A program made the translations under genes and the position numbers. DNA of 429 nucleotides from Escherichia coli (GTDB lineage Bacteria; Pseudomonadota; Gammaproteobacteria; Enterobacterales; Enterobacteriaceae). The stretch's first letter is position 1. Every line of letters begins with the position of its first letter. The DNA is taken from the NCBI RefSeq assembly GCF_003334255.1, contig NZ_QOWU01000243.1. One strand, given 5' to 3'. This document shows positions 1-429 of this stretch, piece after piece. The notes beneath the pieces were generated by a model. The model worked only from the letters and a program-made list of their open reading frames with translations. It was not told the origin of the DNA and searched no databases.

Positions 1-16
1 AATTTGAGAGACTCAC

Positions 17-34
17 GAACAACTTTCGTTGTTC
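17..34 (-). other. Predicted RNA hairpin with GNRA (GAAA) tetraloop in the pre-23S spacer
   Basis: The transcript reads GAACAAC-GAAA-GTTGTTC, a perfect 7-bp stem closed by a GAAA tetraloop (plus-strand gaacaac ttt c gttgttc). It is read directly from the sequence; no function is assigned. Confidence 0.45.
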
Positions 35-60
35 AGTGTTTCAATTTTCAGCTTGATCCA

Positions 61-75
61 GATTTTTAAAGAGCA
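61..75 (-). promoter_or_regulatory. Spacer boxA-like transcription antitermination element (TGCTCTTTAAAAATC in the transcript)
   Basis: Plus-strand gatttttaaagagca (61..75) reverse-complements to TGCTCTTTAAAAATC. This closely resembles the rrn boxA consensus (TGCTCTTTAACAA) that nucleates the Nus-factor antitermination complex. A second boxA copy in the 16S-23S spacer is a described feature of E. coli rrn operons (established knowledge). Function here is inferred from sequence similarity only. Confidence 0.6.
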
Positions 76-138
76 AAACTTCGCAGTGAACCTTTGCAGG
101 TACACTCTGAAGTATTTTTTATTTAATCACTACAGAGA

Positions 139-214
139 TGGTGGAGCTATGCGGGATCGAACCGCAGACCTCCTGCGTGCAAAGCAGGCGCTCTCCCAGC
201 TGAGCTATAGCCCC
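139..214 (-). tRNA. alaT: tRNA-Ala (anticodon UGC), 76 nt with encoded CCA
   Basis: Reverse complement of 139..214 is GGGGCTATAGCTCAGCTGGGAGAGCGCCTGCTTTGCACGCAGGAGGTCTGCGGTTCGATCCCGCATAGCTCCACCA. The anticodon loop is CTTTGCACG (anticodon TGC = plus-strand gca at 179..181). The G3:U70 alanine identity pair is present (G at plus 212, U from plus-strand a at 145). It has a T-arm GGTTCGATCC and an encoded CCA at 139..141. It matches the E. coli rrn spacer tRNA-Ala as I recall it. The gene symbol is a family label (alaT/alaU/alaV). Confidence 0.96.
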
Positions 215-256
215 ATAACATGTAGTTAAAACCTCTTCAAATTTGCCGTGCAAATT
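215..256 (-). other. Inter-tRNA spacer between tRNA-Ile and tRNA-Ala (42 nt)
   Basis: It is bounded by the tRNA-Ile 3' CCA (257) and the tRNA-Ala 5' G (214). It is short, AT-rich and non-coding, as expected for co-transcribed spacer tRNAs processed by RNase P and 3' nucleases. Confidence 0.85.

Positions 257-258
<2 letters not shown>
238..258. repeat. Tandem pair of the self-palindromic octamer CAAATTTG separated by 5 nt, abutting the tRNA-Ile 3' end
   Basis: CAAATTTG occurs at 238..245 and 251..258 with spacer ccgtg between them. Each octamer is its own reverse complement, so the pair can also fold as an 8-bp hairpin with a 5-nt loop in the precursor RNA. The copy at 251..258 overlaps the final CA of the tRNA-Ile CCA end. 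Confidence 0.4.
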
Positions 259-333
<75 letters not shown>

Positions 334-401
334 GTAGAGGTTTTACTGCTCATTTTCATCAGACAATCTGTGTGAGCACTGCAAAGTACGCTTCTTTAAG
401 G
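334..401 (-). other. Internal transcribed spacer segment between 16S rRNA 3' end and tRNA-Ile (68 nt)
   Basis: It lies between the 16S terminus (402) and the tRNA-Ile 5' end (333). The transcript reads AAGAAGCGTACTTTGCAGTGCTCACACAGATTGTCTGATGAAAATGAGCAGTAAAACCTCTAC. There is no ORF and no independent promoter signature. This position corresponds to the 3' strand of the 16S processing stem in enterobacterial rrn operons (established knowledge). Confidence 0.85.
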
Positions 402-429
402 TAAGGAGGTGATCCAACCGCAGGTTCCC
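402..429 (-). rRNA. rrs: 16S ribosomal RNA, 3'-terminal fragment (gene continues beyond the window's high-coordinate edge)
   Basis: Reverse complement of 402..429 reads GGGAACCTGCGGTTGGATCACCTCCTTA, the universally conserved 3' end of bacterial 16S rRNA, including the anti-Shine-Dalgarno CCUCC (plus-strand ggagg at 405..409). Only 28 nt are present, so the call rests on this terminal signature and on the operon context. Confidence 0.93.

What the first reader, a model, noticed from the sequence alone, without database searches (positions are those of the whole stretch)
61..75. boxA-like antitermination motif inside the spacer
The transcript carries TGCTCTTTAAAAATC, which differs from the leader boxA consensus only in its 3' half. 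A spacer boxA is thought to reload or maintain the antitermination complex for transcription through 23S. It is a known element, but it is the main regulatory signal visible in this window.
Basis: partly seen in the sequence, partly recalled or inferred. Interest (0 to 1): 0.2.

Follow-up and report, generated by a model that had tools for sequence, protein, structure and literature searches.

The report
Known spacer boxA of E. coli rrnD
The motif is the well-known second "boxA" signal that sits between the 16S and 23S ribosomal RNA genes of E. coli and recruits the NusB/NusE transcription factors; it is real and strongly conserved, and it is ordinary textbook biology.

Summary
The window is the reverse complement of the E. 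coli rrnD 16S-23S spacer. It runs from the 16S 3' end through tRNA-Ile and tRNA-Ala into the pre-23S leader. On the transcribed (minus) strand, 75..61 reads TGCTCTTTAAAAATC, as reported.

Bases 74..64 (GCTCTTTAAAA) match the published functional boxA consensus GYTCTTTAANA perfectly. The 8 nt that NusB/NusE contact (GCUCUUUA) are identical to the leader boxA. The only internal difference from the leader (C to A, window 65) falls on the consensus N.

All seven K-12 rrn operons carry exactly two copies: one 143 nt before 16S and one 110 or 119 nt before 23S. In spacers retrieved by an anchor in 23S, not by the motif, 75 of 76 complete spacers from 19 gammaproteobacterial genera carry it. Only 7% of shuffled spacers do.

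A hairpin of non-conserved sequence (boxB-like) ends 2-3 nt upstream. They begin the 5' strand of the long-range helix that pairs with the 23S trailer.

The element has been described since 1989 and was mutated in vivo in 1997. Whether its main job is antitermination or tethering for rRNA folding is debated in the literature. Verdict: confirmed, already known, low interest.

The parts
64..74 (-). boxA proper: GCTCTTTAAAA, a perfect match to the published functional consensus GYTCTTTAANA. Bases 74..67 (GCUCUUUA) are the 8 nt contacted by NusB/NusE. Base 65 is the 'N' position, the only internal difference from the leader boxA (C there, A here).
   Evidence: consensus from PMC5725501; 8-nt contact from PMC3177189
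61..75 (-). T75 is variable between genera. AATC (64..61) overlaps the start of the long-range helix.
78..113 (-). boxB-like hairpin ending 2-3 nt 5' of boxA (MFE -15.5 kcal/mol for the 64-nt segment window 118..55 folded; z -2.25). tRNA-Glu-type spacers and both leader types carry hairpins of unrelated sequence at the same place.
   Evidence: sequences
1..64 (-). Pre-23S leader, cut off by the window end. Its 5' part (64..47) is predicted to pair with the trailer 3' of 23S, outside the window. It includes a local hairpin (about 38..13). It matches Rfam StyR-44 (RF01830) over 71..1.
139..214 (-). tRNA-Ala(UGC), context gene upstream of the boxB/boxA set
257..333 (-). tRNA-Ile(GAU), context gene

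Best explanation
This is the spacer boxA of the E. coli rrnD operon, a single-stranded RNA signal in the nascent pre-rRNA. As it leaves RNA polymerase, the NusB-NusE(S10) heterodimer binds GCUCUUUA. Together with NusA, NusG, SuhB and S4, it forms or re-forms the rrn antitermination complex (rrnTAC) on the polymerase that is about to enter the 2.9-kb 23S gene. The complex makes elongation fast and resistant to Rho and to pausing. Because boxA stays bound at the RNA exit, it also keeps the RNA just 3' of boxA next to the polymerase. That RNA is the 5' strand of the pre-23S leader-trailer helix, and it is held there until the complementary trailer is transcribed, which favours RNase III processing and 50S assembly. 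Shown here: identity, strand, position, copy number, conservation, the upstream hairpin and the immediate juxtaposition to the long-range helix. Taken from the literature: NusB/NusE binding to this sequence class, antitermination, and reduced rRNA synthesis when boxA is mutated. Inferred: the tethering role for the 23S helix, by analogy with the 16S leader.
For: Sequence and placement. All seven K-12 operons have exactly one leader copy and one spacer copy, and the spacer boxA and the sequence 3' of it are identical in both spacer types even though the upstream sequence differs. Cross-species, with a motif-independent anchor in 23S: 75 of 76 complete spacers carry it, against 7% of shuffles. 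boxA 9-mers occur in 16-17 of 19 genera, more widely than any tRNA 9-mer. In the full operons sampled (about 45 from 10 other genera, plus the K-12 operons) there was one leader match and one spacer match to GYTCTTTAANA, with a single Vibrio operon lacking a strict spacer match; variation fell at the published Y and N positions. An upstream hairpin of non-conserved sequence leaves boxA unpaired. The segment starting at window 64 pairs with the 23S trailer: cofold; duplex energies beat shuffles in 12 genera, z -2.4 to -6.8; 90% of cells are paired against 18-44% in slid controls, with two compensatory pairs. The leader shows the same geometry, with the 16S helix arm starting right after the leader boxA (I1). 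Literature: boxA sets in leader and spacer (PMC6614797; PMC10250234; PMC4807359); NusB/E binds boxA upstream of 16S and 23S (PMC5725501); 8-nt recognition (PMC3177189); rrnTAC as chaperone and boxA tethering promoting the leader-trailer helix (PMC8632103; PMC10250234; bioRxiv 10.64898/2026.03.17.712431); boxA mutation reduces rRNA synthesis, citing Pfeiffer and Hartmann 1997 on the spacer boxA.
Against: No binding or functional assay can be run here. I could not read the primary papers on the spacer copy (Berg et al. 1989; Pfeiffer and Hartmann 1997); I saw only their titles and how others cite them. [quoted passage not shown] One Vibrio operon with a short, tRNA-less spacer has no spacer boxA at all, so the element is not indispensable in every operon copy. 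Covariation support for the helix next to boxA is modest: 2 of 15 pairs have double changes, 8-12 of 500 shuffles reach the observed values, and I trimmed the trailer segments around the predicted duplex.
Confidence: 0.93

Rival explanations
1. The spacer boxA does not mainly serve antitermination. Its chief role is as a tether: NusB/E-bound boxA holds the 5' strand of the pre-23S leader-trailer helix at the RNA exit of the polymerase, so that it can pair with the trailer 2.9 kb later. Its main output is therefore 50S assembly and processing quality, not read-through. This is a rival about mechanism, not about identity.
For: The helix strand begins 0-3 nt after boxA in both leader and spacer, and this juxtaposition holds in 12 genera. 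For the 16S leader, insertions between boxA and the helix phenocopy boxA deletion (PMC10250234). A stable rrnTAC raised co-transcriptional RNase III cleavage from 3% to over 30% in vitro (bioRxiv 10.64898/2026.03.17.712431). PMC4807359 argues against antitermination as the major function.
Against: All the experimental support concerns the 16S leader, not the spacer copy. The title of Pfeiffer and Hartmann 1997 and citations of it point to reduced 23S synthesis when the spacer boxA is mutated, which fits either model. The two roles are not mutually exclusive.
Confidence: 0.4
2. The conserved block matters mainly as the 5' end of a stable small RNA (StyR-44, about 109 nt) with a function of its own. 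On this view boxA-like conservation reflects that RNA rather than Nus factor binding.
For: The Rfam StyR-44 model matches 71..1 at 81.5 bits against a gathering score of 54, starting inside the motif. The RNA was cloned and seen on northern blots in S. Typhi and E. coli (PMC2943607).
Against: The authors themselves say it may be only a metastable rRNA processing intermediate. The 5' GCU of boxA lies outside the StyR-44 model, yet it is as conserved as the rest. The same motif is conserved in the 16S leader and far beyond the range of StyR-44.
Confidence: 0.04
3. The motif is a chance resemblance in an AT-rich spacer with no function.
For: The spacer is AT-rich. A relaxed search (13-mer, up to 3 mismatches) also hit an irrelevant site inside tRNA-Ile.
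Against: The expected number of consensus matches in the window is 0.01. There were four of four expected sites and no others in 47 kb containing two operons, against 0.14 expected. The motif is present in 75 of 76 orthologous spacers against 7% of shuffles.
Confidence: 0.01

Closest known systems
rrn spacer boxA of E. coli (Berg, Squires and Squires 1989; Pfeiffer and Hartmann 1997)
   Same: It is this element. The window is 100% identical to rrnD of K-12, and the motif lies at the described place upstream of 23S.
   Different: Nothing differs. This analysis only adds that the last four bases of the reported 15-mer belong to the adjoining helix.
rrn leader boxA (TGCTCTTTAACAA, 143 nt upstream of 16S)
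   Same: The same 8-nt NusB/NusE contact segment GCUCUUUA, the same sense strand, the same upstream hairpin, and the same immediate juxtaposition to the 5' strand of a leader-trailer helix.
   Different: C instead of A at consensus position 10, so the leader has an ACA that the spacer copy lacks. The leader is followed by the GU-rich boxC inside the 16S helix strand, and no comparable GT-rich block follows the spacer copy.
Phage lambda nut sites (boxA-spacer-boxB)
   Same: A NusB/NusE-binding boxA next to a hairpin on nascent RNA nucleates a termination-resistant polymerase (PMC8632103).
   Different: The order is reversed (boxB then boxA in rrn). No N protein is involved; SuhB and S4 take part instead. 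boxB is dispensable in rrn.
Rfam RF01830 StyR-44
   Same: It covers window 71..1 above the gathering score.
   Different: It is defined from a cloned cDNA fragment of the pre-23S leader, possibly a processing intermediate. It is not a functional definition of boxA, and it omits the 5' GCU of the motif.
boxA upstream of suhB and other mRNAs (Baniulyte et al. 2017)
   Same: The same consensus GYTCTTTAANA and the same Nus factor recruitment.
   Different: Those sites regulate protein-coding genes, and at suhB the boxA promotes Rho termination. The present site lies within an rRNA operon.

Membership tests
rrn boxA (NusB/NusE-binding antiterminator RNA) | Matches the functional consensus GYTCTTTAANA | tested here: met
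   One perfect match at 74..64 on the minus strand, 0.01 expected; consensus from PMC5725501
rrn boxA (NusB/NusE-binding antiterminator RNA) | The 8 nt contacted by NusB/NusE (GCUCUUUA) are intact | tested here: met
   Identical to the leader boxA in all 7 operons; 8-nt recognition from PMC3177189
rrn boxA (NusB/NusE-binding antiterminator RNA) | Lies on the transcribed strand of an rRNA operon, upstream of a large rRNA gene | tested here: met
   Sense strand, 110 nt before 23S in rrnD
rrn boxA (NusB/NusE-binding antiterminator RNA) | Conserved at the orthologous position in related genomes | tested here: met
   75 of 76 complete spacers from 19 genera against 7% of shuffles; k-mer census; leader and spacer pairs
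rrn boxA (NusB/NusE-binding antiterminator RNA) | Single-stranded, preceded by a boxB-like stem-loop (typical, but not required for function) | tested here: met
   Hairpin at 113..78, with boxA unpaired in local folds of all spacer and leader types. The two-strand cofold pairs it weakly, paired probability 0.01-0.77 over the 11-nt boxA.
rrn boxA (NusB/NusE-binding antiterminator RNA) | Binds the NusB-NusE heterodimer | not testable with these tools
   Literature only, for this sequence class
rrn boxA (NusB/NusE-binding antiterminator RNA) | Mutation lowers read-through or 23S synthesis | not testable with these tools
   Pfeiffer and Hartmann 1997 as cited in PMC4807359; the primary paper is not held in the library
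Rfam RF01830 StyR-44 | Covariance-model score above the gathering threshold | tested here: met
   81.5 bits against 54, model positions 1-71 of 107, cut off by the window end
Lambda-type nut site | Order boxA then boxB, with boxB bound by an N protein | tested here: not met
   The hairpin lies 5' of boxA. The reversed order in rrn is stated in PMC6614797 and PMC8632103.

The most novel reading that the evidence does not exclude
The spacer boxA may work chiefly as a tether rather than an antiterminator. Its conserved placement 0-3 nt before the 5' strand of the pre-23S leader-trailer helix, seen in 12 genera, would let NusB/E-bound boxA hold that strand at the polymerase until the trailer emerges 2.9 kb later. 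This has been argued and tested only for the 16S leader. A smaller point: in the Escherichia, Citrobacter and Enterobacter spacers sampled, the copy has lost the ACA that makes the leader boxA a MazF cleavage site, so the two boxA copies might differ in sensitivity to that toxin.
Probability: 0.35. Interest if true: 0.35.

Novelty: already known. Interest (0 to 1): 0.1.

Why it matters
The finding itself adds nothing new. The spacer boxA of E. coli rrn operons has been in the literature since the 1980s, and all recent rrnTAC papers mention it. Its value here is as a correctly recognised landmark: it fixes the strand and identity of the window (the rrnD spacer) and marks where the pre-23S leader-trailer helix begins. 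The only open question it touches is whether the spacer copy acts mainly in antitermination or in co-transcriptional folding and processing of 23S rRNA. That question is being addressed for the 16S leader copy and has not been revisited for the spacer copy.

Tried and rejected
A relaxed search (13-mer, up to 3 mismatches) gave one spurious extra hit inside tRNA-Ile (305-317, plus strand), so loose matching is uninformative.

The first Python calls failed or printed nothing because all loci are stored in shared files.

I judged aligning the whole 23S trailers with MAFFT too unreliable, because they are too variable. I used per-genus duplex energies against shuffles instead, plus an alignment of trimmed segments. 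The trimming biases the percentage paired, so I give little weight to the modest covariation.

Seventeen retrieved loci had too little upstream sequence (17-270 nt) to test for the motif, and I excluded them from the 76 complete spacers.

L021 (Pantoea) has a duplicated 23S start with an N, which is an assembly artefact. For L080 (Gullanella) my script picked a second, non-orthologous match. I left both out of the helix analysis.

ORFs (8 of at least 20 aa, all trivial), promoter-like sites (0) and terminator-like sites (0) in the window gave nothing. I dismissed the weak Rfam hits (OxyS, HPnc0260, Plastid-ycf2), which score far below their gathering scores.

I could not read Berg 1989, Pfeiffer and Hartmann 1997 or Arnvig 2008, which are not held.

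Full report
**What the window is.** The 429-base window is the reverse complement of a 16S-23S ribosomal spacer. ARAGORN and Rfam place tRNA-Ala(UGC) at 214..139, tRNA-Ile(GAU) at 333..257 and the last 28 nt of 16S rRNA at 429..402, all on the minus strand. The window is 100% identical to thousands of E. coli genomes. In K-12 MG1655 it matches only rrnD exactly.

- The published functional boxA consensus for gammaproteobacteria is GYTCTTTAANA (Baniulyte et al. 2017, PMC5725501).
- It occurs once in the window (74..64, minus strand), against 0.01 expected.
- In a 47-kb stretch of K-12 holding rrnB and rrnE it occurs four times, against 0.14 expected. These are exactly the two leader and two spacer sites, all on the sense strand.
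- In the 8.4-kb rrnD locus, TGCTCTTTAA occurs only at the leader and at this site.
- A repeat finder recovers the pair without being told what to look for (D5).

**Comparison with the leader boxA.**
- All seven K-12 operons carry exactly two GCTCTTTAA: one 143 nt before 16S and one 110 nt (rrnD, rrnG) or 119 nt before 23S.
- The leader reads TGCTCTTTAACAATT and the spacer TGCTCTTTAAAAATC in every operon.
- The crystal structure of NusB-NusE-BoxA shows that only the first 8 nt are recognised (PMC3177189). Those 8 nt, GCUCUUUA at window 74..67, are identical in leader and spacer.
- The single internal difference (window 65, C to A) falls on the N of the consensus.

I retrieved loci by an anchor in the 5' end of 23S, independent of boxA. 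This gave 120 loci from Enterobacterales, Vibrionales, Alteromonadales, Aeromonadales and Pasteurellales.
- Of 76 spacers that were complete back to the 16S 3' end, 75 carry GCTCTTTAA with at most one mismatch (67 exactly), against 7% of shuffled spacers.
- In a census of all 9-mers shared among the complete spacers of 19 genera, GCTCTTTAA (17 of 19) and TGCTCTTTA (16 of 19) are beaten only by CACACAGAT, the 16S trailer strand. They exceed every tRNA 9-mer.
- In the full operons sampled from 10 other genera (about 45 operons), and in the K-12 operons, there was one leader match and one spacer match to the strict consensus. A single Vibrio operon had no strict spacer match. Variation fell at the Y and N positions and at the base before G.
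- Most genera have C at the N position in the spacer, as in the leader. Escherichia, Citrobacter, Enterobacter, Cedecea, Steffania, Pseudoalteromonas and Pasteurella have A.
- One exception is a 193-nt tRNA-less spacer in a Vibrio draft scaffold, which has no spacer boxA at all.

**Anatomy around the motif.**
- Immediately upstream, 113..78 folds into a hairpin that ends 2-3 nt before boxA. The tRNA-Glu-type spacers and both leader types have hairpins of unrelated sequence at the same distance, and boxA is left unpaired in each local fold. This is the boxB-boxA order described for rrn operons, reversed relative to lambda nut (PMC6614797, PMC8632103).
- Immediately downstream, a cofold of the pre-23S leader with the trailer 3' of 23S pairs AAUCUGGAUCAAGCUGAAAAU with the trailer segment AUUUUCAGCCUGAUACAGAUU.
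- In 12 genera the 42 nt starting at boxA form a duplex with their own trailer that is far stronger than with shuffled trailers, z -2.4 to -6.8.
- Two pairs in that alignment show compensatory changes. U-A changes to C-G in one sequence, and A-U changes to U-A in four sequences.
- In the same alignment, 90% of cells pair, against 18-44% when the partners are slid.
- The covariation is modest and I trimmed the trailer segments by hand, so the helix rests mainly on conserved complementarity in each genus.
- The last four bases of the reported 15-mer (AATC, 64..61) are thus the start of the leader-trailer helix, not a divergent boxA 3' half.
- The 16S leader has the same layout: the 48-nt inverted repeat that forms the 16S leader-trailer helix begins right after the leader boxA (I1).

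**Overlapping annotation.** Rfam StyR-44 (RF01830) matches 71..1 at 81.5 bits, with a gathering score of 54. It was defined from a 109-nt cDNA found upstream of 23S in all seven operons. Its authors could not exclude a metastable processing intermediate (PMC2943607). It is best read as the pre-23S leader fragment, not as a rival identity for boxA.

**Mechanism.** From the literature, NusB-NusE binds boxA in the nascent RNA upstream of both 16S and 23S. With NusA, NusG, SuhB and S4 it forms the rrnTAC, which resists Rho and pausing and forms an RNA chaperone ring at the exit channel.
- Mutation of boxA lowers rRNA synthesis from a plasmid-borne operon. For the spacer copy the cited work is Pfeiffer and Hartmann 1997, which I could not read.
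- Whether antitermination is the main function at rRNA is contested (PMC4807359).
- For the 16S leader, tethering of boxA to promote the leader-trailer helix has experimental support (PMC10250234; bioRxiv 2026).
- The conserved boxA-then-helix geometry that I find for the spacer copy fits the same role for 23S, but that is inference.

**Comparison and novelty.** The element is the known rrn spacer boxA. Every defining feature that can be tested by sequence is met, and binding and function are not testable here. It is not a lambda-type nut site, because the order is reversed and there is no N protein. Nothing about it is new, and I score interest at 0.1. The most novel reading still open is that the spacer copy works mainly as a tether for 23S processing (probability about 0.35). 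A minor side observation is that the E. coli spacer copy lacks the ACA that is reported as a MazF site in the leader boxA (PMC12541390).

Noticed in passing
window 355-402 (minus strand): This is the 3' (trailer) arm of the 16S leader-trailer helix. It is 77% complementary over 48 nt to L001 2356-2403, which begins right after the leader boxA. Its core CACACAGAT is the most widely shared spacer 9-mer (18 of 19 genera).
   Followed up: partly
window 333-345 and 227-239 (minus strand): A 13-nt inverted repeat (92% complementary), TAAAACCTCTACA / TGAAGAGGTTTTA, brackets tRNA-Ile. It may be a processing helix around the tRNA.
   Followed up: no
window 1-71 (minus strand): An Rfam StyR-44 (RF01830) match at 81.5 bits starts inside boxA. 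The cloned 109-nt RNA spans roughly from boxA to the 23S 5' end and may simply be the excised pre-23S leader.
   Followed up: partly
window 65 (minus strand) vs L001 2353: The leader boxA reads AACAA and so contains an ACA, reported as a MazF cleavage site within the leader boxA (PMC12541390). The E. coli spacer boxA reads AAAAA and has no ACA inside it. Most other genera keep C in the spacer copy.
   Followed up: partly
L075 about 9093-9285: Vibrio sp. Isolate32 has a 193-nt spacer with no tRNA and no boxA, while its leader boxA is present (about L075 6990). It was the only complete spacer of 76 without the motif. The scaffold contains an N, so an assembly artefact is not excluded.
   Followed up: partly
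L002-L007 (K-12 operons): The distance from spacer boxA to 23S is 110 nt in rrnD and rrnG but 119 nt in the other five operons. This is a 9-nt length difference in the pre-23S leader that does not follow the tRNA-Glu versus tRNA-Ile/Ala spacer types.
   Followed up: no
L001 2398-2415 and 2666-2683: There is a 17-of-18 identical direct repeat, TAACGTCGCAAGAC(G/C)AAA, between the 16S leader and the 5' domain of mature 16S rRNA.
   Followed up: no
L021 (Pantoea sp. 1.19 scaffold): Two 23S 5' ends lie 199 nt apart and are joined across an N. This looks like a scaffold assembly artefact in a collapsed rRNA repeat.
   Followed up: no
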